A DNA stretch of 62,539 nt, the filler included, from Chrysochromulina tobinii (lineage: Eukaryota), in the NCBI GenBank assembly GCA_001275005.1. It is 7 parts of 7 records of this genome, joined end to end, with 100 filler letters (N's around TTAATTAATTAA, not from the genome) between each part and the next. Parts side by side here need not be neighbours in the genome. Positions count along the whole stretch, not along the records: positions 9,741 to 19,372 come from JWZX01000955.1; 6 more parts are not named here. One strand, written 5' to 3'. The notes beneath the pieces were generated by a model, which ran no database searches, was not told where the DNA came from, and saw nothing but the letters and a program-made list of their open reading frames with translations. The position numbers were made by a program, and so were the translations under genes. Numbering within the stretch: the stretch's first letter is position 1; the number at the start of each line of letters is the position of its first letter. This document shows positions 8,567 to 56,468 of the stretch, piece after piece.

Positions 8567-9216
8567 CCGTTGTCAATCCATGGCCATGCCAACGACCATA
8601 TTGAAGGCAGGGACGTCGTTGTCGCACGGATATTGCCGATTCCCTTATCTTCTCCAGCCACATCAGTACAGTGCACCAATGACGTGGGAGGTCGACGTCA
8701 CGCCGACGTCTGATTTACACTCAGCAATTCCCCAGTGCCAGTCCGAGGTGGCAGCACTCGATTCATTTGCCCTGATGTTTCCGCGCACCGTGTCCCTGTG
8801 GGGCCCCGTCGCGCGTCGGTCACACCTGTCCGCGCCATGCGGGATAGCGGCCCTCGTGCTTGGGGGTTCGTAAGGCTGGGGGCTCGGAGACTTGCGCGTG
8901 GTGTCGAACAGTACCAGCAGCAGACGCGTTGTGTTGAACAGAAAAGTTGCAGCACGCCTTGAAAATACTTGTACTTGACGGGCACCAAAACAATAGTCGA
9001 CGCCGCCTCATTGCGCCGCCTCCCTCTCCTGCCCGCGACGCTGTGCTCGCCGTCGCGATCTGATCAACCGCGAAACCCCAAGCAGATTGTATCAGAACTT
9101 CATGAAGGTTTGGCAAGCAAGATATCGGCCCCTTTGTCCCTCGAGCTCCAACTTGACTTGACTTGACTTGACTTGATTTGTAATTCCGAGCGCGCCCTCG
9201 ACCGCGCGCGGGGGAC

Positions 9217-9640
9217 ATGCTGGAGCTCATCGACGCATTCACAAACGACCTGATCCGCGACCCGGTGCTCGCGGCCGATGGCCACGTCTACGATCGCTCC
9301 TCGCTCCTCAAGTACTTTGCCGCCCGCAAGTCCGAAGGATGGCCGATCGTCTCGCCTCAGGACCCGGAGCAGCCCATGCGAGAGGAGTTGGGCGAGGCGC
9401 CGGCCGACGTGGTTGCGGCGCTGGCGCAGCTGCGCGCGGACGGCGAGCTGATGAGAAGGGCGCGCCAGGCACGATCCGCCACCTTCAAGAGCCTCGAGGC
9501 CCTCAAGGTGGTGTTCGATGTGCTGGACCCCCTGTCGGAGCTGCTGGCTGCGACGCTGGAGGGTTGGAGGACGCCGGTGGTGATCGTGTTCGGCCAGGAG
9601 ACGAGCGGCAAGTCGTCGCTGCTCGAGCGGCTCGCGATGA
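9217..9640 (+). CDS. U-box fused to a dynamin-like GTPase (3'-truncated at contig end)
   Basis: U-box-like LIRDPVLAADGHVYDRSSL...SP, then PVVIVFGQETSGKSSLLERL, which matches the dynamin-family G1 context. Confidence 0.65.
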
Positions 9641-9740
9641 NNNNNNNNNNNNNNNNNNNNNNNNNNNNNNNNNNNNNNNNNNNNTTAATTAATTAANNNN
9701 NNNNNNNNNNNNNNNNNNNNNNNNNNNNNNNNNNNNNNNN
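9641..9740. other. Artificial contig linker (also at 19373-19472, 38645-38744, 42335-42434, 49898-49997, 56369-56468)
   Basis: Identical 100-bp spacer N44-TTAATTAATTAA-N44 with stops in all six frames. Confidence 0.97.
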
Positions 9741-12700
9741 GCCACCGCCGTGAGCTGCAGACCGCGGTGAGCACCAGCGCTGGCCTGACCAGCGCACTCG
9801 CCAACACCGCCGTCAGCCGCATCGTCCTTGCCTCCGGCACCTACAACCTCATCGCCGAGCTCAGCATCACCAGGAGCGTCATCCTGGAGGCGGCGGCGGG
9901 AGCCACAGTCACCCTGAACGCACAAGCGAGCTTCTCGAGTCCGCGCCGTGTGCTGAACATCAACCCGGGCTCGTCGGGCGTCGTGCAGCTGATCGGGCTC
10001 GGCATCACAGGAGGCTACATCAACTGGGTGCGCGCTCATTTTCAAAAGTTCCCATCGCCCCGATGGGAGACTCACGTTTGTGATCTGCTGGTTGTTTGCA
10101 GGGCGGCGGTGTCTATGTCAGGGGAGGCACAGTGACCATCTCATCGTGCACCATCAGTGGGAACACAGCATCTGTACATCATATGCGTGTTCATGTTCAA
10201 AAGTTCCAATGGCCCCGATGGGAAATTTGCTGACGAGATTGCCTCGACTCTCGCTTGCACAACTGCGAACGCTTCGTTCAACTACAGAGGGTACGTTCCA
10301 CAGAGACCTTGACCAACTTCCCATCGCCCCGATGGGAAAATTGCTGACGCGCTTGCCTCGACTCACGCTTGAACAACTGTGCGGCCGACGCTTCGGTCAA
10401 CTATAGCAAGTACGTGCCACAGCTGAATTTTTCCCATCGCCCCCATGGGAGACTCACGTTTTGCTCGTTGTTTGCAGGGTGGCGGTGTCTATGTCGGGGG
10501 TGGCTCAGTGACCATTGATTCGTGTACCATCAGTGGGAACACAGCAATTGTGCGAGCTCATGTTCAAAAGTTCCCATCGCCCCAATGGGAAGATTGCTGA
10601 CGCGCTTGCCTCGACTCTCGCTTGCACAACTGCGGCCAACGCTCCTGTCAACTACAGGGGGTGCGTGCCACAACTGAAATTTTCCCCATCGTCCTCACGT
10701 GAGACTCACGTTTGCTCGTTGTTTACAGGGTGGCGGTGCCTTTGTCGAGGGTGGCACGGTGACCTTCTCATCGTGCACTATCAGTGGAAACACAGCATTC
10801 CCGGTGCGCGCTCACGCTCAAATTTCCCCATCGCCCCGATGGGAAGATGGCTGACATGCCCAAATCGACTCTCATCTAACAGGGATATGTACGTGCCAGA
10901 CACGCCTGCAAACTTCCCATCGCCCCGATGGGAAAGTTGCTGACGCGCTTGCCCCGACTCACGCTTGCACAACTGCAAACGCTTCGGTCAACTACAGGGG
11001 GTACGTGCCACAGAGACCTTCCCATCGCCCCGATGGGAAAACTGCTGACGCGCTTGCCTCGACTCTCGCTTGCACAACTGCGGCCAACGCTCCTGTCAAC
11101 TACAGGAGGTGCGTGCCGCAACTGAAATTTTCCCATCGTCCTCACGTGAGACTCACGTTTGCTCGTTGTTTTTACAGGGTGGCGGTGTCTTTGTCGAGGG
11201 TGGCACGGTGACCTTCTCATCGTGCACTATAAGTGGGAACAGAGCTAACGATGTGCGTGCTCCTGTTCAAAATTTCCCATCGCTCCTCATAGGAAACTCA
11301 CGTTTTGCTCAATGTTTGCAGGGAGGCGGTGTCCTTGTCGATTCCGGTAGGGTCACGATAACGTCTTCCTCGATCTACGGGAACACAGCGGAAGTGCGTG
11401 CTCATCTTCAAAAGTTCCCATCGCCCCTGATGGGAGAATCACTGACGTGCTTGCACCGACTCACGCTTGCACAACTGCGAACACTCCGGCCAACTACAGT
11501 TTGTACGTGCCACAGATACCTTGCAAACTTCCCATCGCCCCGATGGGAGAATTGCTGACGCGCTTGCCTCGACTCACGCTTGCACAACTGCGAACGCTTC
11601 GGTCAACTACAGTATGTATGTGCCGCATTCCTTGAAAAGTTCCCATCGCCCCGATGGGAAAATGCCTTGTTGACATGTCCATTTTCGATTCTCATCTTTT
11701 ATGATGGGTGCTGCCTCGAACTACCAGGATGGAGTACGTGCTAGCCTGAAACTTCAAAAGTTCCCATCGCCCCGATGGGAAAATTGCTGACGCGCTTTTG
11801 CTTTGATGCTCGCTTGCACAACTAACGCTTCGGTCAATTACAGCAAGTACGTGCCGCAGAGACATTCCAAAGTTCACATCGCCCCAATGGGAGATTTGCT
11901 GACACGCTTGCTTTGATTCTCGCTTTCACAACTGCTAACGACGCTTCGGTCAACTACAGGGAGTACGTGCCGCAGAGACCTTGAACACTTCCCAACGCCC
12001 CGATGGGAAAATGCCTTGCTGACGCGTCTATTTCGATTCGATTCTCATCTTTTATGATGGGTGCTGCCTCGAGCTACCAGTCTAGAGTACGTGCCCTCTG
12101 CGCCTGAAACTTCAAACGTTCCCAGTGCCCCAATGGGATTTTCACATGTTTTGCACTTGTGCGTGCAGGGCGGTGGTGTCTTCGTCAGAAGTGGCATGGT
12201 GACCATCTCTTCGTCCACCATCAGTGGCAACACAGCTCTCAGCGCTGTGCACGTATGTGCAAGCCTTGCCTGCAAATCCCCATCCCTGGGAAAATGGCTG
12301 ATGTGCTTGCCTCGACTCTCGCTTACACAACTGCGGCCGATGCTCCGGTCAACTAATGGATGTACGTGCCGCAGAGACTCAATATTTCCCATCGCCCTGA
12401 TGGGAAAATGGCTGACACCCTTGCCTCGACTCTCGCTTGCACAACCGTGGCCGACGCTTTGGTCACCTACAGGATGTACGTGCAGCAGAGACTGAAAACT
12501 TCCCATCGCCTTGCTTTTGTGACCTGCTTTGTGCCCTCTCGTTCCCCTCTTCAGACCCAGGGGGGCAATGTCTATGTCCAAAAAGGCGCCTCTGTCGTCT
12601 GCTCCTCGGGAACGACCCTCACCGGCGTCACTTGGGAGGGGGGCTCAATAGAAGCAGACCCGACTTGCGAACCAACGGGCGTCATCGTCGGCGTCGTCGT

Positions 12701-13535
12701 CGGCGTGATCCTCGCCCTCGCCCTCGCCCTGGTCATCCTGCACCGCCGTCGCCGCGATATGCGCCGCAAGGAGGCCCAAAAGCCACCGGCGTGGTGGAAT
12801 CCGCACAAACCCGCCTTCTACCTTTTGCCCCGCGCGGCCGTGCTGGGCGCCAGGACCAAGCAGCTGGGGCGTATGCAAGAGCTGCGCGACTCGCTGCAGC
12901 TCGTGAAGCTGGCCATCGACCTGAACGAAGCCTTCCAGGGCGAGGGGCTGATCGAGAACATCCTCATCGTCAGCCACAGGTGGGAGGACTCGATGACGCC
13001 CGACGAGACCGGCGCGCAGCTGGCGGCGCTCCGGGCGCACCTGAGGGCCCACCCCGAGCTCCACTACGTCTGGTTCGACTACGCGTGCATGCCGCAACGT
13101 TCGGGCTCGGCACACCGCTCGGGCACGGACGGCCGCACGAAAGCGGAGAAGGCCGAGTTCAACCTCATGCTCGGCGCAATCGCCGACCTCTACCTGACGG
13201 CCAAGGTGTTGATCCTGCTCGACACCATGTACCGCTCGCGGTTCTGGACGACAATGGAGGGCTGGTGCGCGATGCAGAAGGTGACATCGCAGGGCGTGCG
13301 CCCGGCAAGGGAGGGCGAGTCACGTGTCACCGTCGTGTGCATCCACAACGCGACGCAGGACGACAAACAGGCCCTGCTGAAGATGTCGACCAAGACGCCG
13401 ACGGAGATCTCCAACTTCCTCGCGTCGCCCGACGTGGCGGTGACCAACAAGAAGGACAAGACGACGATGCTGCCGATCGTCGGCAAGACCGACGAGCACG
13501 TCCGGGAGATGATGAGCGGCATGCACAGCTGCTGA
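9741..13535 (+). CDS. Micro-exon-rich receptor-like gene: Pmp-like beta-helix ectodomain, TM helix, HET-like domain (5'-truncated)
   Basis: Large exons at <9741-10027, 10102-10173, 10478-10549, 10729-10803, 11178-11252, 11322-11393, 12169-12246/12252 and 12561-13535. The six middle exons each encode one GGGV(Y/F)VxGGxVTIxSxTIxGNTA repeat, all phase 0. Fourteen 3/6-nt micro-exon slots lie between them. TM GVIVGVVVGVILALALALVIL-HRRRR. HET-like motifs IVSHRW, YVWFDYACMPQ, DLYLTAKV, YRSRFWTTME. Confidence 0.75.
10028..12560 (+). repeat. Array of about 21 homologous intron cassettes (about 70-125 bp), each with a TTCCCATCGCCCCGATGGGAA hairpin or a degenerate copy
   Basis: Repeated consensus GT(A/G)CGTGC...AAGTTCCCATCGCCCCGATGGGAAAATTGCTGACGCGCTTGCCTCGACTC(T/A)CGCTTGCACAACTGCG..CGCTTCGGTCAACTACAG. 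Confidence 0.9.
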
Positions 13536-14085
13536 ACCTGAGGGGTTTCGCTTTGGCTTTAGTCATACTTTTGGAAGAGGGGAGGGGGAAGCGAGGAGGT
13601 GGGAGCGTTGGGGCGCCATCTTGGCGTCCAGAGGCAGATCATTCCGAACAGCAACTCAGGTGAGGAACTATGCTCCATCCTCCATGGAGGGGTGGTCCGG
13701 TCCCTTGAGAAATGTGATTGGAAAGTGTCGTGTGATTTACATGTGCCCGCATGCTGAGGCGCGCGCGGGGGGGCGGGGGGCGGGGGGCGGGTCCTGACTC
13801 GCTGTCTTGGCTGTTGCCATGCCTGCTCGCCCGCGCGGAGAGAGGACCGAGTGGTGCATGATGATTGTCGCGCTTGAGGAGGCAGCCGCGAGGACGAGTG
13901 AGCACGAGGTCGGTTGCGTGTGCGATCATTGATGTGAGCCCGCCGGCGGACCCGAGCGCCGAGGAGCGGAAGACCCGCCGGAACGCGGAAGCGAACGGGA
14001 CGCGAAGGTGGAAGTCGTGCTGTGTAGGGTCTGCACCTCTGGTCTACGATGCGGTCGACGATGCGGTGACACGCGCGGTGTGGCG

Positions 14086-14137
14086 TGGTCTACTATTTTT
14101 TATGTTTATAAGGCGGCCCAACCCTACACCTGTTTGG
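14086..14137 (-). repeat. Dispersed ~52-bp repeat, reverse complement of the unit tandemly repeated at 50081-50306
   Basis: The reverse complement CCAAACAGGTGTAGGGTTGGGCCGCCTTATAAACATAAAAAATAGTAGACCA closely matches 50093-50142. Confidence 0.85.
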
Positions 14138-14244
14138 TGTATCCGACGTAATGTGGGGTGCGGTGCGTCGTTGCGCGCGCATTTCGCATTTGGTTTGGGG
14201 CGCTTCGTCTCTCACCCGCGGGTCCAAGGGGTACCCCAAGTGAA

Positions 14245-14590
14245 GGTCAAAAAACAAAATCTCGCGCCCCACTATGTTGAAACACCATAGGGTAGACGTC
14301 GGTAAGCACCTGAGTGTTGAAAGCAACCCTCCCCCAAGGTCAAATTCTCGCGCCCCACTATGTTGAAACACTACCCCAAGGTCAACATAGTGGGGCGCGA
14401 GATTTTACCTACGCTAGGTCATAATCTCGCGCCCCACTATGTTGAAACTGTACCCTTCTACCCTATGGTGTTTCAACATACTAGATTACACTTAGTGGGG
14501 CGGCGCGAGACTTTGACCTTGGGGGAGGGTTTCTACAACACTCTGGTAATTAGAAATTCCCTATCTTGGTGAGTTTCAACATAGTGGCAG
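14245..14590. repeat. Foldback-like cluster of direct and inverted 23-bp CTCGCGCCCCACTATGTTGAAAC copies (probable non-autonomous TE remnant)
   Basis: Forward copies at 14261, 14347 and 14426. Inverted or partial copies near 14381, 14470, 14493 and 14573. Confidence 0.7.
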
Positions 14591-14811
14591 GCCTCTGCGC
14601 CTCTGGCATGAAAAACCCTAAGCAGGCGGTTTTAATGTAATTATATGTAGTTATGTCATGTACCCACATCGGCCAATCACCACCCTCACGTGTTCGCACA
14701 TCGGCGCCTCCATACAACAATCACAGCACACCATGCAACACACGCCCCGACGGGCCCGCTTCGGCCGCCGGCCGCGCACGCTATATAGGTAGCTGTGATG
14801 CCCCGGGCGAC

Positions 14812-16722
14812 TCAGACGGCGGTGTCGACGCGTTTGCTCAGCTTGCTAATTGGCGCCCCTTGCGGCGGCCCGTCGCCAAAGTACGAGGAGTATGCACCTC
14901 GCTCAACCGCTCGCTCGAGGCGTGACGTGGCCATGTCGTCGTCGGGCGTGCCGTACTGAGTGCCGTACGAAGACTTGGAAGTGAGGCGCCCATCCTTACG
15001 CGATGGGTTGCCTGGGATGAGGGTCGAGTCGTACACAGGCACGTGTAACTGCTCTGCATGTTCGTGGGGCGGCTCGTTCGTGAAGTGCTCGGGCGGGTCA
15101 CGAAGCAGTAGGATGAATTTCATGCGACCCGAGATGCAGCAGTCGAGAAGCACGCAGCAGCCGAGGAACATGGAGAGGCCGACGAGGACCGCAAGCAGTA
15201 GGCAGAGCAAAAGCGCAATGTTGTACAGGCGCGGCGTGGAACGATTGCAGTCGTCTCCAGCGAAGGTGAAGTAGCACAGCATGATGCCCCATGCGACAAA
15301 GAGGATCGCGAGGATCGCAAACGAGACCGCCTTTGCCTGCAGCCTGCCGCGCCACATGGCCACTTCGTAGTGTGAGCGTGGCGGTGGCTGCGGGACGCTA
15401 AAGAGGTCGACAATGAAGCCGAAGAGGGTGAGGACGAGGCCGGTGATCACGAAGACGAGCAGCAGCCAGTGAATGGGCGAGGGGGCCCCCGCCACTAGCC
15501 AGCCCCACACGTCGGACTGGAACGTCGTCCCTGGGTCGAAGGCGGGGCACACGATCTCCCACGAGCTCCACAGCTGCGGCGGATGGAGGTGAGGGGGTGA
15601 GGGGGTGAGAGACACGAGAGGGAGGAAGGGGGAGGGAGGGAGTGGAGTGAAGAGAGGGTGAAGTGTAGGGAGGGTGGAGTGTAGGGAGGGTGGAGTGTAG
15701 GGAGGGTGGAGCGTAGGGAGGGTGAGGTGTAGGGAGTGGCTCACCTCGAAGCCCATGAAGAGGAAGAACCAGAGCAGCGCCGCGGTGTTGACGAACAGGG
15801 CGACGAGCGAGCGCCCAGGCACAATGCACCCGGGCGCCATGAGCAGCTGCAGTAGCCCGACGCAGCACCATCCGAAGCGCGTGTTGCTTCCGGCCAGCGG
15901 GTTGACATAGTGCTTCTTGCCTTCGTCCTGGCCCCGTGGCGGGAGCTTGCGTGCCACCTGCACGGCACCAGCTATGTTGACGGGCAGCTCGCGCTGACTA
16001 CTTTCCTGCCCTTGCCCATCTATCCTGCCCTCGTCATCTATCCTGCCCTTGCCGCCGCCCTTGCCCAAGTCGGCTCCAATCCGGCTGTCGGAGAGCTCGG
16101 TATACTCCACGTCGACGCCCACTGTCTCAACGCATCCGATCATGCACAGTGCGATCGGCGCGCACAGGCAGCGCGAGAGGAGTCGCACGAGCGGCACCGA
16201 GAGGAAGAGCGTGGCGAGGATGGCGAAGAAGAAGGCGGCGGCGACGCTCCATCGATAAAGAAGCGGCGCCGTCTCAGAACAGCTGTAGCGCGTCTTGACA
16301 GTCTCGTAGATCAGGAAGCTGCCAGCAACGCTCAGCAGTAGGAAGAAGACGATGAGCAGGAAGAGGTTGGTGTACGACGGCAGCGACGAGAGCCGTGCGT
16401 AGTGAAGCCACTCGCGGAAGAGCAAATAGACGAAGAGCAGGCCGATGCTGGCGTAAATGACAAGAAATAGCGGGAGCAGCGGAGGGTTTGTGCCATCGCA
16501 TGGCGTGTTCCAGTTCAGGATGCCGACGACCAGCATCGCGATGTGGAAAATCAGCAGCACGAAGATGGCCGTCGCTGCATGCATGCGTCGCCCGAGCCGC
16601 GCGTGCGGTGCGAGCTCCATGCGCACCGGATGCATGATCGGCGTCGCCTCATCCGGGTCGATGGGTCCTCCGCCGCCCGTGCGGAAGCGAACCATGCCAC
16701 GCCCAGGGCTTGGACAATTCAT
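14812..16722 (-). CDS. Multi-pass membrane protein with two similar TM modules; in-frame intron 15574-15744
   Basis: About 8 hydrophobic helices. Repeated C..T.P.LY motif (CSETAPLLY, CNRSTPRLY). GT-AG intron filled with a CCCTACACTCCA minisatellite. Confidence 0.75.
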   Translation of the reverse strand: MNCPSPGRGMVRFRTGGGGPIDPDEATPIMHPVRMELAPHARLGRRMHAATAIFVLLIFHIAMLVVGILNWNTPCDGTNPPLLPLFLVIYASIGLLFVYLLFREWLHYARLSSLPSYTNLFLLIVFFLLLSVAGSFLIYETVKTRYSCSETAPLLYRWSVAAAFFFAILATLFLSVPLVRLLSRCLCAPIALCMIGCVETVGVDVEYTELSDSRIGADLGKGGGKGRIDDEGRIDGQGQESSQRELPVNIAGAVQVARKLPPRGQDEGKKHYVNPLAGSNTRFGWCCVGLLQLLMAPGCIVPGRSLVALFVNTAALLWFFLFMGFEVSHSLHLTLPTLHPPYTPPSLHSTLPTLHPLFTPLPPSPFLPLVSLTPSPPHLHPPQLWSSWEIVCPAFDPGTTFQSDVWGWLVAGAPSPIHWLLLVFVITGLVLTLFGFIVDLFSVPQPPPRSHYEVAMWRGRLQAKAVSFAILAILFVAWGIMLCYFTFAGDDCNRSTPRLYNIALLLCLLLAVLVGLSMFLGCCVLLDCCISGRMKFILLLRDPPEHFTNEPPHEHAEQLHVPVYDSTLIPGNPSRKDGRLTSKSSYGTQYGTPDDDMATSRLERAVERGAYSSYFGDGPPQGAPISKLSKRVDTAV

Positions 16723-16799
16723 CCATCCTGTGTTTCCTTTTTAGGAACTGGAAGCCAACTTTCATGTACTATGCCTGCATGCCAATATGACCGCTTCCA

Positions 16800-18148
16800 G
16801 TAGGTCCGGGAAATCGGTGCAAACCCTGTTCAGGGTCGGGGACCCCTGATCAGCCTCCCCGTGCGTGGCGACCAACCGTGCCCCAATATATTGATATTTC
16901 AAATGAGACCCCTGATCGGAGGCCCAATCCAGAGCGCGTTCAAGGCGGAGAGGAAGCCGGCAAGAGGGGCTGATCAGGCCTGATCAGGGTCGCACTGGTT
17001 GGGGGTCTCAAAGGGCCCCAGCCTCTGTAGGGGCTAATCAGGCCTGATCAGGGTCCGACTGGTTGGGGGTCCCATAGGGTCCCAGCCTCTGTAGGGGCTG
17101 ATCAGGCCTGATCAGGGTCGCACTGGTTGGGGGTCCCATAGGGTCCCGCAGCCTCTGTAGGGTCTGATCAGGCCTGATCAGGGTCGCACTGGTTGGGGGT
17201 CTCATAGGGCCCCAGCCTCTGTACAGCCTCTGTAGGGGCTGATCAGGCCTGATCAGGGTCGCACTGGTTGGGGGTCCCATAGCATCACCCAGAAGACCCT
17301 ATGGGACCGCGTTACTGGCCCAGCATAACGACGCCTTACAGGTGGAGCGGTATGACTAACCACGAGAAGATTAGGAAGCACTTGCACAGGCCCAACATGA
17401 GTTTGGGTATGTGTTAGGAAAACGTACGCGTTACTGGCCCCGCATAACGACGCCTTACAGGTGGAGCGGTATGACTAACCACGAGCTATTACGGAACCAA
17501 GCCACAGGCGTAGCCAACCGCCCACCACAGTGTGGCTTAGGCGGGACGCACTTGCACAGGCCCAGCACAACCCAAGCTGATCAGGCCTGATCAGCCCCTA
17601 CAGTGGCAGGGACCCTATGGGACCCCCAAACATGTGCGACCCTGATCAGGCCTGATCAGCCCCTACAGAGGCAGGGACCCTATGGGACCCCCAACCAGTT
17701 CGACCCTGATCAGGCCTGATCAGCCCCTACCGAGGCTGGGGCCCTATGGGACCCCCAACCAGTGCGACCCTGATCGGGCCTGATCAGCCCCTACAGAGGC
17801 TGGGACCCTTTGAGACCCCCAACCAGTGCGACCCTGATCAGGCCTGATCAGCCCCTACCGAGGCTGGGACCCTCCAGATCCCTGTCCCTCTGCCCGCGAC
17901 GCCTGATCAGGCCTGATCAGCCCCTCCAGAGGCTGGGACCCTCCATCCCTGTCCCTCTGCCCGCGACCGGCGTGCGGCGACCCTGATCAGGCCTGATCAG
18001 CCCCTCCTGACCGGCCTCTCCTATCAAAATCGGGTAGTTTTGCACCTCATGCGCCGGGCACCTTGAAAATCAGCTCTTTAGACCTTTCGACCCTGATCAG
18101 GGGTCACCGACCCTGAACAGGGTTTGCACCGATTTCCCGGATCCTCTC
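16800..18148. mobile_element. Non-autonomous Mutator-like (MULE)/foldback element
   Basis: 49-bp TIR core (16805-16853 vs 18093-18141, 1 mismatch). G...C termini. 9-bp target-site duplication CCGCTTCCA at 16791-16799 and 18149-18157. Inverted arrays of ~60-bp subterminal repeats. No transposase. Confidence 0.85.
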
Positions 18149-18205
18149 CCGCTTCCAAATAAATGCTCTAGTGCGTCTAACCGTTTTTTGCTTTGTCGCC
18201 TCACT

Positions 18206-19228
18206 TCATCTTGCCCTTGCCGGGCTCGGCACCGGCGCGGGCGCCACCGTCGGCCCGCGGTTGGCAATGAGCGAGAGGAAGCAATTGTAGCCGATCTGGA
18301 TGGTGTTGATGTACAGCACGCGCTGCGAGGACGGGATGATACGGAAGTTGATCGCGTGTGCCAGCGGCCACACCATCCAACTACCGGTCACCTGCCGAGC
18401 GCACGCACGCGGCCGAACGGAAGCAACGCGCAGCGCCGTTAGGTCGGGGCGCTGTGTCGGGCAAGGCAACCTGGTAGAACGGGCACCGTCGAGGCGAGGA
18501 CGACGAGCGGGTGGCGGTGGCGGTGTGAGAAGGGGCCCTCGGGGCACTGGCACGCCATCCACCTGGGTCACTAGCTCGTCCTTCATCTTGTCGAAGACGT
18601 TGCCGAGGCCCTTGAGCTCCGCCGCGGCAATGTAGCTAAAGAACATCATGCCAAAGATCGGGGCCCAGAACACCTGGTCGACGAGCACCTTCGCAAAGAC
18701 CACCTGAGCCGATGTGCCCGGGAACTTGCCGTCCAGCCATCCGTAGAAAACGTGGGAGGAGGTGCCATGTACGAGGAAGCCAAAGGAGGCGAGGCGGAGG
18801 AGCCGCAGAAAGTCGAATGAGTCGACTTTCTGGATGACTTTCTGGGCGAGAATGTCGCCGAGCGCGAAGCCGGTCAACGAGGTGAGGGCCTTCATGAGCA
18901 GTGGCGTCTCCTCAAGCAGCTGTTCATAGCGCTTCCACATTTGCATCATAGGCGTGCTGTCGCCCTCGTCGTCGCTTGAGCCTGCCGTCGATCCCATGCC
19001 GCCATCGCCGCCGTCGGCGCCGCGGATGCCGCCCGCTCGCGAGCCGCCCTTCCTGAACATCGGGAACTGGGGCATCGTCTTGCGGACCGCCAGAATCCAC
19101 GAGCGGCCGATGAGCATCTCCGGCGCAGCGGTGCGGCTAGCGGCTACCGGCACGGCCGCGCGCATCGGACAAGCCGGCGCGACCACGAGCGCCGACGCCG
19201 TCGACGCGAGCGCCGCCCAAACGAGCAT
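18206..19228 (-). CDS. Mpv17/PMP22 family protein with bipartite (probably plastid) presequence; intron 18392-18562
   Basis: Motifs PLLMKALTS...GDILAQ, KVLVDQVFWAP, WPLAHAINFRIIPSSQRVLYIN. N-terminal signal peptide ending ASAL plus an Ala/Arg-rich transit region. Confidence 0.85.
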   Translation of the reverse strand: MLVWAALASTASALVVAPACPMRAAVPVAASRTAAPEMLIGRSWILAVRKTMPQFPMFRKGGSRAGGIRGADGGDGGMGSTAGSSDDEGDSTPMMQMWKRYEQLLEETPLLMKALTSLTGFALGDILAQKVIQKVDSFDFLRLLRLASFGFLVHGTSSHVFYGWLDGKFPGTSAQVVFAKVLVDQVFWAPIFGMMFFSYIAAAELKGLGNVFDKMKDELVTQVDGVPVPRGPLLTPPPPPARRPRLDGARSTRLPCPTQRPDLTALRVASVRPRACARQVTGSWMVWPLAHAINFRIIPSSQRVLYINTIQIGYNCFLSLIANRGPTVAPAPVPSPARAR

Positions 19229-20279
19229 GGATGATTGCATGGATGATTGCATTCCCTCTGTGCCGCTTGACCCCAACGGTTATAAAGCGGCCGTGAACCA
19301 CCGCGTGAAGAGACAGACAGCGGAGCCATCAGGAGCCCGGCCAGGGGGGAAGGGGAGATGCGGGGAGATGTCNNNNNNNNNNNNNNNNNNNNNNNNNNNN
19401 NNNNNNNNNNNNNNNNTTAATTAATTAANNNNNNNNNNNNNNNNNNNNNNNNNNNNNNNNNNNNNNNNNNNNGCCCCGGGGTGTGTATGCCGCTCGAGTA
19501 GCGCGTCAGCGGGGCATGGGGATCCCCGGTGATCATGTAAATAGGGTGGAGACGTATCAGATACAGACACCTCTCGCGGCGCGGCGAGGTTTCATTACTA
19601 CATTTAACGAAGTCGTAACACGCTCATATTTTCTATAGATTCTTTGTACCCTTTTGCCTTTGGCTTTGCGGCACGTGGCGGCACGCGCGACGAGCACGGT
19701 ACAACCGCACGCGTAATCAGAGAGTTACCTCCACCCGTCCTCGCTCCTCCGCTCACTCTCGGCCGCACCCCACGGACCCCGGATGGCATCTTGAACTTCC
19801 AACTTGATGCGCACCAGGGGTCGATGCACGTGATCGTGCGGGCTGCCGGGCGCACCAGAGAGAGAGACACTCACTCAGCCGTCCATGTAAACTTTTAAGT
19901 AATTGTAAAGTCACTCCGGTTTTAAAGTCATCAGCGATGCAAATAGCGAGATCGGTACGACGCGGCGGCCGAACGGACGCCGAACCAGGAAGAGTCTACC
20001 AGTCTCTGCAGCGAGTCGCACGTGAACCGCGCTGAAACCCCCGACGGGCCCTCTCTATACGATACACCGCCCAGCGCCAACGTGAACGCGTCATCGTGAC
20101 TCGCTCGATCACACGCCGACCGTGTCCCCGTGCCCAGCAATTATGCTGTGATTTGATCCCAGCCCCGTAGCCGGGACGCCTGTCACAGTTCACCCAATAC
20201 TCGCGGCATACACCGGAAGCGAGGCTTCCTCGCGCCAAGACAGAGGTCTACTCAGGCCAGTGTCAGGAACGTCGGGCTC

Positions 20280-38644: not shown

Positions 38645-38744
38645 NNNNNNNNNNNNNNNNNNNNNNNNNNNNNNNNNNNNNNNNNNNNTTAATTAATTAA
38701 NNNNNNNNNNNNNNNNNNNNNNNNNNNNNNNNNNNNNNNNNNNN

Positions 38745-42334: not shown

Positions 42335-42434
42335 NNNNNNNNNNNNNNNNNNNNNNNNNNNNNNNNNNNNNNNNNNNNTTAATTAATTAANNNNNNNNNN
42401 NNNNNNNNNNNNNNNNNNNNNNNNNNNNNNNNNN

Positions 42435-49897: not shown

Positions 49898-50080
49898 NNN
49901 NNNNNNNNNNNNNNNNNNNNNNNNNNNNNNNNNNNNNNNNNTTAATTAATTAANNNNNNNNNNNNNNNNNNNNNNNNNNNNNNNNNNNNNNNNNNNNCTG
50001 TGGTGCGCGTCGGAGACGACGGAATCCTCTGCGACATCGAGAGAGCGCTTGCCATGCACGAAGCTGGCGACGAATAGATA

Positions 50081-56050: not shown

Positions 56051-56468
56051 GGATAGTCGGTAGCTGTTTGTCGTGTGTTTTCCAAGGGAGTTGGTTTCGT
56101 CTTCTCTGTGCATCACACTTGTTAGGGATGTTTAAAGGAAGGGTCCGATTTCCGAAACGAACGCGACGTCGTTCCTGCAGGGATTCGGGCCGGCCCGAAT
56201 CCGCAGAATTTTTTTTTTGTTTTTTTGGAAAGGTGGTACTCTGCAACGAGACGCCGAGGTCGAGAGTTTTCAGAGTTTTTGGGGGAGGCGACAATTCGGT
56301 GCCGGTAGAATCCCACAGCGGCGCCGGGTCCCATTGGGAGCCGGCGCCATTGGCCAGTGCTGGCTGGGNNNNNNNNNNNNNNNNNNNNNNNNNNNNNNNN
56401 NNNNNNNNNNNNTTAATTAATTAANNNNNNNNNNNNNNNNNNNNNNNNNNNNNNNNNNNNNNNNNNNN

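What the first reader, a model, noticed from the sequence alone, without database searches (positions are those of the whole stretch)
10102..12560. Arrays of single-codon (3-nt) and 6-nt micro-exons encoding the variable loops of a repeat ectodomain
SEEN: what look like long introns between the beta-helix exons are chains of short introns separated by tiny AG|exon|GT(A/G)(C/T)GT units. These are AGG 10288-10290 (R), CAA 10407-10409 (Q), GGG 10658-10660 (G), GGATAT 10883-10888 (GY), GGG 10998-11000 (G), GAG 11106-11108 (E), TTT 11500-11502 (F), TAT 11613-11615 (Y), GATGGA 11728-11733 (DG), CAA 11844-11846 (Q), GGA 11960-11962 (G), TCTAGA 12081-12086 (SR), GAT 12473-12475 (D), plus GAT 12359-12361 with a broken acceptor. 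All 14 are multiples of 3, phase 0 and stop-free. The flanking cassette DNA is conserved while these 3-6 nt vary. Loops carry 2, 1, 3, 0, 6 and 2 micro-exon slots, always between ...GNxA-x and GGGV, the loop position of Pmp-like repeats. KNOWN: phase-0 micro-exons diversify Schistosoma MEG proteins, and repeat-exon shuffling is reported for brown-algal LRR genes. INFERENCE: loop length and sequence can be varied one residue at a time by exon skipping and/or unequal recombination between cassettes, giving a combinatorial receptor repertoire. I am not aware of this being described.
Basis: partly seen in the sequence, partly recalled or inferred. Interest (0 to 1): 0.96.

Follow-up and report, generated by a model that had tools for sequence, protein, structure and literature searches.

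The report
Single-codon exons build receptor loops
A haptophyte alga's gene for a beta-helix membrane protein really contains exons only three or six bases long, and RNA shows them spliced in one codon at a time between the coil exons, which likely lets loop length and sequence change module by module.

Summary
All 14 AG|3-or-6-nt|GTRYGT slots lie at the stated coordinates, between 72-84-nt coil exons of a 5'-truncated gene. The gene is from a Chrysochromulina-like haptophyte and encodes a beta-helix ectodomain, one membrane helix and a conserved cytoplasmic domain.

Exact-match RNA contigs show seven slots in use (rebuilt). They join exon4|GGATAT|GGG|GAG|exon5, exon3|GGG|exon4, AGG|CAA|exon3 (upstream intron retained) and GAT|last exon. 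One contig splices past the last two slots, and one join (+2 nt) is unexplained. No contig spans the six-slot array.

A paralogue (genomic L009) has transcript-like contigs that join GGG|GGG and GAT|TAT|exon, retaining only an intron with a GC donor.

Across the window and 23 related metagenome loci, 76 of 76 cassette ends are followed by a slot that is a multiple of 3 nt. Absence of stop codons is not significant. In a duplicated three-cassette unit the slots differ at 9 of 12 positions, against 43 of 324 elsewhere.

Combinatorial exon skipping remains weakly supported. I found no paper describing this. Earlier notes of this scan report similar single-codon arrays on other DNA, all without RNA evidence. 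I rate it a new variant of micro-exon genes.

The parts
9743..10027 (+). First exon present on this contig (the gene is cut by the contig start at 9741). It encodes the N-terminal cap of the beta-helix and ends ...GITGGYINW.
   Evidence: Open frame. It is 97-98% identical to Chrysochromulina-named proteins P0027 and P0028. The donor is GTGCGC at 10028.
10102..10173 (+). Coil exon, 72 nt, phase 0 (GGGVYVRGGTVTISSCTISGNTAS).
   Evidence: Exact-match RNA contigs cover it (records 2, 3, 7, 8).
10288..10290 (+). Micro-exon AGG (R).
   Evidence: RNA contig X12 record 3 reads ...ctacag AGG CAA GGTGGC, with the upstream intron retained. The rebuilt sequence has the same length and the single mismatch that the aligner reported.
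10407..10409 (+). Micro-exon CAA (Q).
   Evidence: Same contig as AGG.
10478..10549 (+). Coil exon, 72 nt.
   Evidence: RNA contig X12 record 4.
10658..10660 (+). Micro-exon GGG (G).
   Evidence: X12 record 4 equals exon3+GGG+exon4 exactly.
10729..10803 (+). Coil exon, 75 nt.
   Evidence: X12 records 4 and 6.
10883..10888 (+). Micro-exon GGATAT (GY), after a second cassette type whose acceptor reads ...ctaacag.
   Evidence: X12 record 6 (117 nt) equals exon4+GGATAT+GGG+GAG+exon5 letter for letter.
10998..11000 (+). Micro-exon GGG (G).
   Evidence: X12 record 6.
11106..11108 (+). Micro-exon GAG (E).
   Evidence: X12 record 6.
11178..11252 (+). Coil exon, 75 nt. It is followed by a simple 69-nt intron with no slot.
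   Evidence: X12 record 6.
11322..11393 (+). Coil exon, 72 nt.
11394..12168 (+). Composite intron with six predicted micro-exons: TTT 11500-11502, TAT 11613-11615, GATGGA 11728-11733, CAA 11844-11846, GGA 11960-11962 and TCTAGA 12081-12086. It is a duplicated three-cassette unit (11394-11733 against 11734-12086).
   Evidence: Sequence. Period-344 repeat. Slots differ at 9 of 12 positions against 43 of 324 elsewhere, Fisher p = 4e-6. Splicing is NOT shown: only an unspliced contig over 11640-11771 was found.
12169..12252 (+). Coil exon, 84 nt, using the donor cac|GTATGT at 12252/12253.
   Evidence: X13 record 11 runs from 12169 to 12252 and then joins 12561.
12359..12361 (+). Dead slot GAT. The acceptor is mutated to ATG.
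12473..12475 (+). Micro-exon GAT (D).
   Evidence: X13 record 12 joins 12475 to 12555. The skipped stretch is GT..AG and 79 nt long, and the upstream intron is retained.
12555..13535 (+). Last exon. It holds the final coil, the membrane helix (12678-12740), the cytoplasmic domain (12741-13532) and the stop codon. An alternative acceptor lies at 12560/12561.
   Evidence: ORF. 55 homologues at E <= 1e-60. AlphaFold model with pLDDT 86.9. The alternative acceptor is used in X13 record 11.
10914..10934 (+). One example of the intron palindrome TTCCCATCG-CCC-CGATGGGA(A), present in every intron of the gene. A branch-like CTGAC or CTCAC follows it.
   Evidence: 20 matches, 0 expected. It forms a 9-bp stem in the minimum-energy folds of three cassette introns, with z from -1.9 to -2.7.

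Best explanation
RNA contigs show that the 3- and 6-base pieces between the coil exons of this Chrysochromulina-like gene are true micro-exons, spliced into the message in frame, and each is likely handled by removing its two roughly 110-base flanking introns one at a time (intron definition).

The gene encodes a single-pass membrane protein. Outside the membrane is a right-handed beta-helix in which each 24-28-residue coil is one phase-0 exon. Inside is a conserved alpha/beta domain whose fold is possibly TIR-like.

The turn between 'GNTA' of one coil and 'GGGV' of the next is encoded by the end of the coil exon plus 0 to 6 modules. Each module is one intron of a single sequence family followed by one or two codons. 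The intron has a GTRCGTGC donor, a 9-bp hairpin, a CTGAC/CTCAC branch-like site and a CTACAG acceptor.

Shown: seven of the 13 slots with an intact acceptor are used in RNA, and four more in a paralogue. Partly spliced intermediates show that neighbouring introns are removed independently.

Inferred: the modules arose by duplication of intron-plus-codon units (the period-114, 251 and 344 repeats). Gain or loss of a module changes a loop by one or two residues without breaking the frame. The codons diverge faster than the introns because the loops form a variable, probably ligand-facing, edge of the helix.
For: 1. Direct RNA evidence. At 98% likeness, 15 contigs from RNA runs X11, X12 and X13 were laid (X14 gave none). 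They gave 6 joints.
- Record 6 equals exon4+GGATAT+GGG+GAG+exon5 exactly (117 of 117 nt).
- Record 4 contains exon3+GGG+exon4 exactly.
- Record 3 matches retained intron+AGG+CAA+exon3, with the one mismatch that the aligner reported.
- Record 12 removes 12476-12554 (GT..AG) and keeps the upstream intron.

2. A second gene. Genomic L009, from a 25.7-kb contig, has exon|GGG|GGG|GAT|TAT|exon with five introns.
- P0031 reads ...YYDV-G-G-[retained GC-donor intron]-D-Y-GGGFYV.
- P0030, P0281 and P0282 join only GGG|GGG.
- P0280 and P0278 are unspliced.
- RNA run X11 holds the GAT|TAT|exon junction as a loose end.

3. A third case, at protein level. P0142 reads exon...GNTAYGY|intron...VNYS-M-YV, which implies a slot of [T/C]AT. 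P0143 is identical over its first 235 residues and reads GNTAYGY-Y-GGGV.

4. Census. Of 102 profile hits, 14 lacked the profile's 3' end, leaving 76 distinct cassette ends. Of these, 67 are followed by a donor after 3 nt and 6 after 6 nt. The other 3 are an 18-nt slot, a TCT|GTACGC slot and the window's dead acceptor.

5. Slot divergence. Slots differ at 9 of 12 positions against 43 of 324 elsewhere (p = 4e-6). In three further module comparisons the slots differ at 3/3, 1/3 and 2/3 positions, the introns at 23/173, 7/168 and 17/172.

6. Mature relatives have loops of 0-14 residues at this position, rich in G, Y, W, N, S and D, like the slot codons (G18 D10 S8 Y6 L5 F5 W5 of 79).

7. Fold. P0139 and P0025 pass Pfam Beta_helix at 6e-23 and 6e-11. 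In the P0143 model (pLDDT 85.6) the loop residues lie outside the strands.
Against: - The RNA contigs have a depth of only 2-4. They come from two runs of what may be one campaign.
- No spliced contig covers the six-slot array, so 6 of the 13 intact slots are untested.
- One contig joins 10173 to 10476 (exon2+AG+exon3, +2 nt). This fits neither inclusion nor skipping.
- One contig skips both GAT slots (12252 to 12561).
- Absence of stops is not significant, and length by descent explains most of the '3n' rule.
- Adjacent slots are not more alike than random pairs (26 pairs, mean 2.0 against 1.95, P = 0.64). This gives no support to recent local duplication.
- Distal intron positions are as variable as the slots, so faster slot evolution rests on the duplicated-unit comparisons only.
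- Whether P0030, P0031 and P0143 come from RNA or DNA assemblies is not stated by the tools.
Confidence: 0.8

Rival explanations
1. The cassette chains are inert tandem repeats inside long introns. Each composite intron would be removed as one piece, and the 3-6-nt slots would not be part of the normal mRNA.
For: One RNA contig splices 12252 to 12561 in frame, past both GAT slots. No spliced contig was seen over 11394-12168. Unspliced contigs of the locus are present in the RNA runs. The lack of stop codons is not significant.
Against: Four exact-match contigs carry seven slots in frame. The same holds for four slots of the L009 gene. Splice-site letters around the slots are the most conserved part of the cassette.
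Confidence: 0.05
2. The joined forms are DNA, not spliced RNA. They would come from processed or intron-poor paralogous copies, or from DNA carried over into the RNA libraries.
For: Some family members have long uninterrupted frames on long contigs: P0139, 574 aa, lies on contigs of up to 29.7 kb. Merged slots such as CATGAT, CAAGAT and CCTTAT exist in genomic loci. The tool warns that RNA libraries can hold DNA.
Against: The contigs match this gene with 0 mismatches, while the nearest paralogous loci found are at most 93.6% identical. Three different partly spliced states of one gene, each with an adjacent retained intron, would need several distinct retrocopies. In L009 the retained intron is the one with the GC donor, which is what splicing kinetics would predict.
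Confidence: 0.05
3. The cassettes are mobile intron-generating elements (introner-like) that inserted next to each other, rather than products of tandem duplication. The slots would be what is left of the exon, or target-site copies, between insertions.
For: The cassette has a central inverted repeat. Cassettes at different loops and in different paralogues are very alike.
Against: All 20 motif matches in the 62.5-kb window lie inside this one gene. Higher-order periods of 251 and 344 nt include exons and several cassettes, as tandem duplication gives. I saw no direct repeats flanking the simple introns when reading the sequence. No look-alike was found in the scan's notes by sequence.
Confidence: 0.12

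Closest known systems
Micro-exon genes (MEGs) of Schistosoma mansoni (abstract of PMC10526429, seen in the search listing)
   Same: Rows of symmetric, in-frame very short exons in genes for secreted or surface proteins. The abstract gives exon sizes of 3-81 bp. From recall, not read here: alternative splicing of MEG exons produces protein variants.
   Different: In MEGs most of the coding sequence consists of micro-exons, the introns are long (up to 5 kb per that abstract) and are not copies of one another, and the one structural abstract listed calls MEG 2.1 isoforms intrinsically disordered (PMC10399815). Here the micro-exons are mostly single codons and sit only in the turns of a folded beta-helix. 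They are separated by roughly 110-nt introns of one sequence family. I found no sequence relationship to MEGs.
Single 3-nt micro-exons of animals, such as RPS24 (micro-exons of 3, 18 and 22 bp; abstract of PMC12207440) and Drosophila homothorax (abstract of PMC7392893). Both were seen in search listings.
   Same: A 3-nt exon that adds one residue.
   Different: These are isolated exons or small mixed groups with unrelated flanking introns. They are not chains of up to six single-codon exons repeated across a gene family.
Plant and streptophyte micro-exons (1-15 bp), including two adjacent ones of 5 and 12 bp that annotation missed (passages of PMC11096116 read; abstract of PMC8831610)
   Same: Very small constitutive exons verified by RNA-seq and overlooked by gene predictors. 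Here too, the Chrysochromulina gene models and the ORF calls read through introns.
   Different: The plant micro-exons are ancient, conserved and of fixed sequence, in housekeeping-type genes. Here the codons are hypervariable and the modules are duplicated.
Exon-per-repeat candidate receptors of the brown alga Ectocarpus (ROCO genes: each LRR is one 72-nt exon; passages of PMC3341825 read)
   Same: One structural repeat of 24 residues per 72-nt phase-0 exon, in a large and variable family of candidate receptors, with repeat number changing by exon gain and loss.
   Different: No micro-exons are described in the passages I read. The repeat type is LRR, not a beta-helix, and the proteins are cytoplasmic.
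Earlier notes of this scan on other DNA: single-codon exon arrays in beta-helix surface-protein genes of AT-rich protists (e1-7156049, e1-7157597, e1-7186016, e1-7185839, e1-9737332, e1-7156823), in a RING gene (e1-7451636) and in front of fungal HET genes (e1-7703538)
   Same: Near-identical short introns separated by single codons, mostly in the loops of beta-helix surface proteins.
   Different: They are unchecked AI notes. Six of the eight say that no RNA evidence was obtained, and the other two (e1-7156823, e1-7703538) mention no RNA data. Here the host is a GC-rich haptophyte and RNA contigs show the codons spliced in.

Membership tests
Micro-exon (general definition) | An exon of a few nucleotides, bounded by an acceptor and a donor, that is present in spliced RNA | tested here: met
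   Seven slots appear in exact-match RNA contigs. Six slots (11500-12086) remain untested.
Micro-exon (general definition) | The exon keeps the reading frame (symmetric, length a multiple of 3) | tested here: met
   14 of 14 in the window. 76 of 76 cassette ends in the window plus related loci.
Schistosome MEG family | Most of the coding sequence is made of micro-exons separated by long introns | tested here: not met
   Micro-exons give 16 of roughly 600 codons. The introns are 68-118 nt.
Schistosome MEG family | Protein variants are produced by skipping micro-exons | tested here: inconclusive
   One contig skips the last two slots and one join is odd. No counts of isoforms are possible from contigs.
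Right-handed parallel beta-helix (Pfam PF13229) with Pmp-like repeats (PF02415) | A match to the family profile above the curated cut-off | tested here: inconclusive
   Met for the spliced relatives P0139 (81.6 bits against a cut-off of 25.9, plus Chlam_PMP at 42.1 bits) and P0025 (42.6 bits). P0143 and P0001 gave no hit. The window's own spliced product could not be submitted, and its first exon alone gave only weak hits.
Right-handed parallel beta-helix | Stacked three-strand coils, with the variable residues in a turn | tested here: met
   AlphaFold model of relative P0143: pLDDT 85.6, regular coils, and the residues between 'NTA' and 'GGGV' lie outside the strands. This is a predicted model of a paralogue, not of this protein.
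TIR (or STIR/HET-like) signalling domain, for the cytoplasmic part | Sequence or fold match to TIR domains | tested here: inconclusive
   No Pfam hit in any of 42 members and no PDB sequence hit. VIA-align gave a best Z of 5.8 (SpbK TIR); many TIR, SEFIR and deoxyribosyltransferase chains scored Z 4-5.8, and only 4 of 48,161 chains reached Z >= 5. Foldseek found nothing at E <= 0.001, and flavodoxin-like azoreductases ranked first. The resemblance of SHRWE...WFDYACMPQ to HET motifs is recalled, not tested.
Introner-type mobile introns | Near-identical copies in unrelated genes, with insertion footprints | tested here: not met
   Within the window, all 20 motif matches lie in this gene. I saw no flanking direct repeats. 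This could not be tested genome-wide, because no genome is held.
Recursive splicing (zero-length exons) | An AG|GT junction that leaves no nucleotides in the mRNA | tested here: not met
   The 3-6 nt between AG and GT are retained in the RNA.

The most novel reading that the evidence does not exclude
A haptophyte receptor family encodes the exposed turns of its beta-helix one codon per exon. Each 'intron + codon' module is a unit that recombination can add, delete or shuffle, and that the spliceosome can include or skip. The codons are under diversifying selection. One gene family would thus generate a combinatorial repertoire of loop lengths and sequences: a splice-based diversity generator for recognition at the surface of a single-celled alga.
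Probability: 0.3. Interest if true: 0.92.

Novelty: new variant of a known kind. Interest (0 to 1): 0.8.

Why it matters
- For splicing. Three consecutive exons of 6, 3 and 3 nt, and pairs of 3-nt exons, are joined correctly. U1 pairing at a donor normally uses the last three exon bases, so the whole exon lies inside the splice-site signals of both neighbours. That makes this a natural test bed for intron definition and for the order in which introns are removed.
- For annotation. Gene callers and the published-style gene models of the relatives read through or skip these pieces. The loops of hundreds of family members are therefore probably mis-predicted (263 hits).
- For protist biology. This is a very large family of membrane proteins with hypervariable loops outside the cell and a shuffled, possibly TIR-like domain inside. 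It is a candidate recognition system in an ecologically important algal group.
- For this scan. Several earlier notes of the same layout in other protists lacked RNA support, and this locus supplies it.

Tried and rejected
- **Own genome:** none is held, so no genome-wide census was possible.
- **RNA contigs at 90% likeness:** dominated by paralogues. Only 15 of 60 joints were shown, and they could not be used for this gene. They did show paralogue loops (SY, NY, SN, QNQDG) and the L009 junction.
- **X14:** nothing was laid, so no conclusion. There is also no contig across 11394-12168.
- **Protein searches for a spliced product of this exact gene:** only the genomic read-through P0144 was found.
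- **tblastn of 198 proteins against the window and 23 loci:** only unspliced or partly spliced matches.
- **Stop-codon depletion:** not significant.
- **Adjacent-slot similarity:** none.
- **Regex census:** it picked false acceptors inside coil exons and inside slots that contain AG. I replaced it with the profile-anchored census.
- **Count of slots per inter-coil gap:** of 38 gaps, 23 had none and 15 had 1-6 slots. The parse is rough, because one window row merges two loops and variant donors are missed.
- **Cytoplasmic domain:** no hit from Pfam, the PDB sequence search or Foldseek. The Atlas gave only a 0.76 lead to an HNOB cluster, which I did not take up.
- **Rfam over 9741-13600:** no match at E <= 1.
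- **The scan's notes searched by sequence:** nothing.
- **Literature:** no paper holds 'Chrysochromulina'+'microexon' or 'micro-exons'+'haptophyte'. 'Introner'+'haptophyte' gave 7 papers, none on this judging by their titles. The searches for 3-nt exons and for consecutive micro-exons gave only the animal and plant cases cited. The library lacks most subscription journals, so this is not proof of absence.
Full report
**What the window is.** The window is several contigs joined by spacers of 44 N, TTAATTAATTAA and 44 N. The finding lies on the piece 9741-19372, and the gene is cut at its 5' end by the contig start. No whole genome is held. The first exon is 97-98% identical to proteins that their sources name as Chrysochromulina. 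The tail is 71-89% identical to its closest relatives, and 80-83% to those named as Chrysochromulina. I therefore treat the host as a Chrysochromulina-like haptophyte. That is an inference from names attached to relatives.

**Check of the observation.**
- There are 11 slots of 3 nt and 3 slots of 6 nt.
- The slot at 12359 has ATG in place of CAG.
- The large exons are 72-78 nt and phase 0. Each encodes one coil, GGGVxVxxGxVTIxSCTISGNTAx.
- Introns are 68-82 nt when simple or last in a chain, and 105-118 nt inside a chain.
- All carry the palindrome TTCCCATCG-CCC-CGATGGGA. It has 20 matches in the window, all within 10049-12405, against none expected.
- Tandem Repeats Finder reports periods of 251, 344 and 114 nt.

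**Direct test with RNA.**
- The run search found 10 runs listed as DNA that hold 0.60-0.65 of the words, and 6 RNA runs that hold 0.13-0.18.
- At 90% likeness the RNA contigs were dominated by paralogues and could not be read for this gene.
- At 98% likeness 15 contigs were laid (X11 1, X12 6, X13 8, X14 0). They gave six joints.
- I rebuilt the contigs from window slices to check the arithmetic.

What the rebuilt contigs show:
- X12 record 6 (117 nt) equals exon 4 + GGATAT + GGG + GAG + exon 5, letter for letter.
- X12 record 4 contains exon 3 + GGG + exon 4 exactly.
- X12 record 3 is exon 2 + retained first intron + AGG + CAA + exon 3. It has the same length as the aligner's reading, and its single difference is the one 'other letter' the aligner reported.
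- X13 record 12 removes 12476-12554 (GT..AG) and joins GAT to the last exon, while the upstream intron is still present.

Seven slots are thus seen in RNA.

Results that complicate this reading:
- X13 record 11 joins 12252 to 12561 in frame, using the donor GTATGT and an acceptor 6 nt downstream. It skips both GAT slots.
- The other end of record 4 joins 10173 to 10476 (+2 nt). I cannot explain this.
- Nothing spliced covers the six-slot array.
- Depths are only 2-4.

**A second and a third gene.** A metagenome scan with the junction pattern returned 121 loci. 24 of them carry the intron motif at least twice. I dropped one, L063, as a chance match, which leaves 23 family loci.

L009 is genomic and comes from a 25.7-kb contig. 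It has exon 1, then GGG, GGG, GAT and TAT, each between cassette introns, then the next coil exon. The third intron starts with GC instead of GT. Its related protein records show three splicing states:
- P0280 and P0278 are unspliced.
- P0030, P0281 and P0282 have only the intron between the two GGG removed.
- P0031 has every intron removed except the GC-donor one. It reads V-G-G-[intron]-D-Y-GGGFYV.

The GAT|TAT|exon junction also appears as a loose end in RNA run X11.

P0142 and P0143 are identical over their first 235 residues. P0142 then runs into an intron whose translation implies a slot of [T/C]AT. P0143 reads GNTAYGY-Y-GGGV. That decoding leans on the family consensus, so it is an inference.

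**Census.** A profile of the 60 nt upstream of the window's slots found 102 hits in the window plus the loci. 14 of them lacked the profile's 3' end. After merging near-identical contexts, 76 ends remained:
- 67 are followed by a donor after 3 nt.
- 6 are followed by a donor after 6 nt.
- 3 are special cases: an 18-nt slot, a slot with a GTACGC donor, and the window's dead acceptor.

No slot length fails to be a multiple of 3. Most of this is shared by descent. The independent exceptions to the 3-nt length (CATGAT, CAAGAT, CCTTAT, and slots of 12 and 18 nt) are also multiples of 3.

The 79 slot codons contain no stop. That is expected by chance about one time in seven (my arithmetic), so it is not evidence.

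Slot residues are G18, D10, S8, Y6, L5, F5, W5, N4 and P4, among others. This resembles the G/Y/W/N/S/D-rich loops of 0-14 residues seen in the 32 relatives with at least two such loops.

**Evolution of the modules.**
- The array 11394-12086 is a duplicated unit of three cassettes. Its slots differ at 9 of 12 positions, against 43 of 324 for the rest (Fisher p = 4e-6).
- Three other homologous modules give 3/3, 1/3 and 2/3 for the slots, 23/173, 7/168 and 17/172 for the introns, and 10/70, 6/73 and 11/71 for the coil exons.
- The slot codons have therefore diverged faster than the introns around them. This fits diversifying selection, or homogenisation of the introns. I cannot separate the two.
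- Against a simple picture of recent one-step duplications: adjacent slots are no more alike than random pairs (26 pairs, mean 2.0 against 1.95, P = 0.64).
- Distal intron columns are as variable as the slot columns.

**The protein.**
- Relatives P0139 and P0025 pass Pfam Beta_helix, and P0139 also passes Chlam_PMP.
- An AlphaFold model of P0143 (pLDDT 85.6) shows regular three-strand coils. The residues between NTA and GGGV lie outside the strands.
- The last exon adds a membrane helix and a 264-residue domain. This domain is conserved in many architectures, including ankyrin, LRR, EF-hand, kinase and TIR partners. It has no Pfam or PDB sequence match.
- The model of this domain (pLDDT 86.9) is an alpha/beta sandwich. 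VIA-align ranks TIR, SEFIR and deoxyribosyltransferase chains highest, but only at Z 4-5.8. Foldseek finds nothing at E <= 0.001. 'TIR-like' is a lead, not a finding.

**Mechanism.**
- Shown: the slots are exons, and the introns on either side of a 3-nt exon are removed independently. Intermediates exist with either neighbour still present.
- Inferred: the short introns, the strong GTRCGTGC donors, the hairpin and the branch-like CTGAC/CTCAC allow recognition intron by intron. Once one intron is removed, the codon becomes part of a normal-sized exon. Modules are gained and lost by recombination between intron copies.

**Comparison and novelty.** The closest known cases are:
- schistosome micro-exon genes (exons of 3-81 bp and long introns; abstract of PMC10526429);
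- single 3-nt animal micro-exons;
- plant micro-exons, including an adjacent pair (passages of PMC11096116);
- the 72-nt exon-per-repeat receptors of Ectocarpus (passages of PMC3341825).

None of the papers I could search describes chains of single-codon exons separated by copies of one intron.

Notes of this scan report the same layout on other DNA, mostly in beta-helix genes of AT-rich protists. Six of those eight notes say that no RNA evidence was obtained. They are unchecked, and I did not test their loci. A further note describes an apparently mobile intron family elsewhere in this genome. I found no sign that the cassettes here are mobile, though this could be tested only within the window.

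I rate the finding a new variant of a known kind, and interesting.

Noticed in passing
window 9641-9740, 19373-19472, 38645-38744, 42335-42434, 49898-49997, 56369-56468: The window is a chain of seven contigs. They are joined by 44 N + TTAATTAATTAA + 44 N spacers, so neighbouring genes across these points are not linked.
   Followed up: partly
window 10173 to 10476 (RNA contig X12 record 4): One RNA contig joins the last base of exon 2 to 'AG' + exon 3, two extra bases that break the frame. This fits neither inclusion nor skipping of AGG and CAA. It may be a splicing error or a non-canonical site.
   Followed up: partly
L009:1230-1240 (genomic paralogue): One cassette intron starts with GC instead of GT. 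It is the only intron retained in the otherwise spliced P0031 and P0030 forms, so it acts as a natural weak-donor experiment.
   Followed up: partly
window 12741-13532: The cytoplasmic domain has invariant residues S78, H79, R80, W81, P87, D88, W111, D113 and Q119, among others. In other proteins it is attached to ankyrin, LRR, EF-hand, kinase or TIR parts, and it has no Pfam family. Its predicted fold is weakly TIR-like or flavodoxin-like.
   Followed up: partly
proteins P0139, P0201, P0202, P0212 (relatives, not in the window): A 574-residue family member is an uninterrupted frame on contigs of up to 29.7 kb. Some paralogues therefore seem to have few or no introns, yet they carry loops such as YSW, TDW and YYYGG. 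They may be processed copies that record spliced loops.
   Followed up: no
proteins P0305 against P0029 (relatives): These near-identical records differ by a 4-residue tandem duplication (YVSN YVSN) at the end of the first exon. It is another small in-frame length change at the same turn.
   Followed up: no
window 9184-9640 (end of the preceding contig): An open frame begins with a U-box-like stretch and runs into a P-loop of the form GQETSGKSSLLE, which is dynamin-like. This reading is from recall and was not tested.
   Followed up: no
window 14812-16740, minus strand: A 642-codon open frame with many hydrophobic stretches lies on the same contig as the gene studied. I did not examine it.
   Followed up: no
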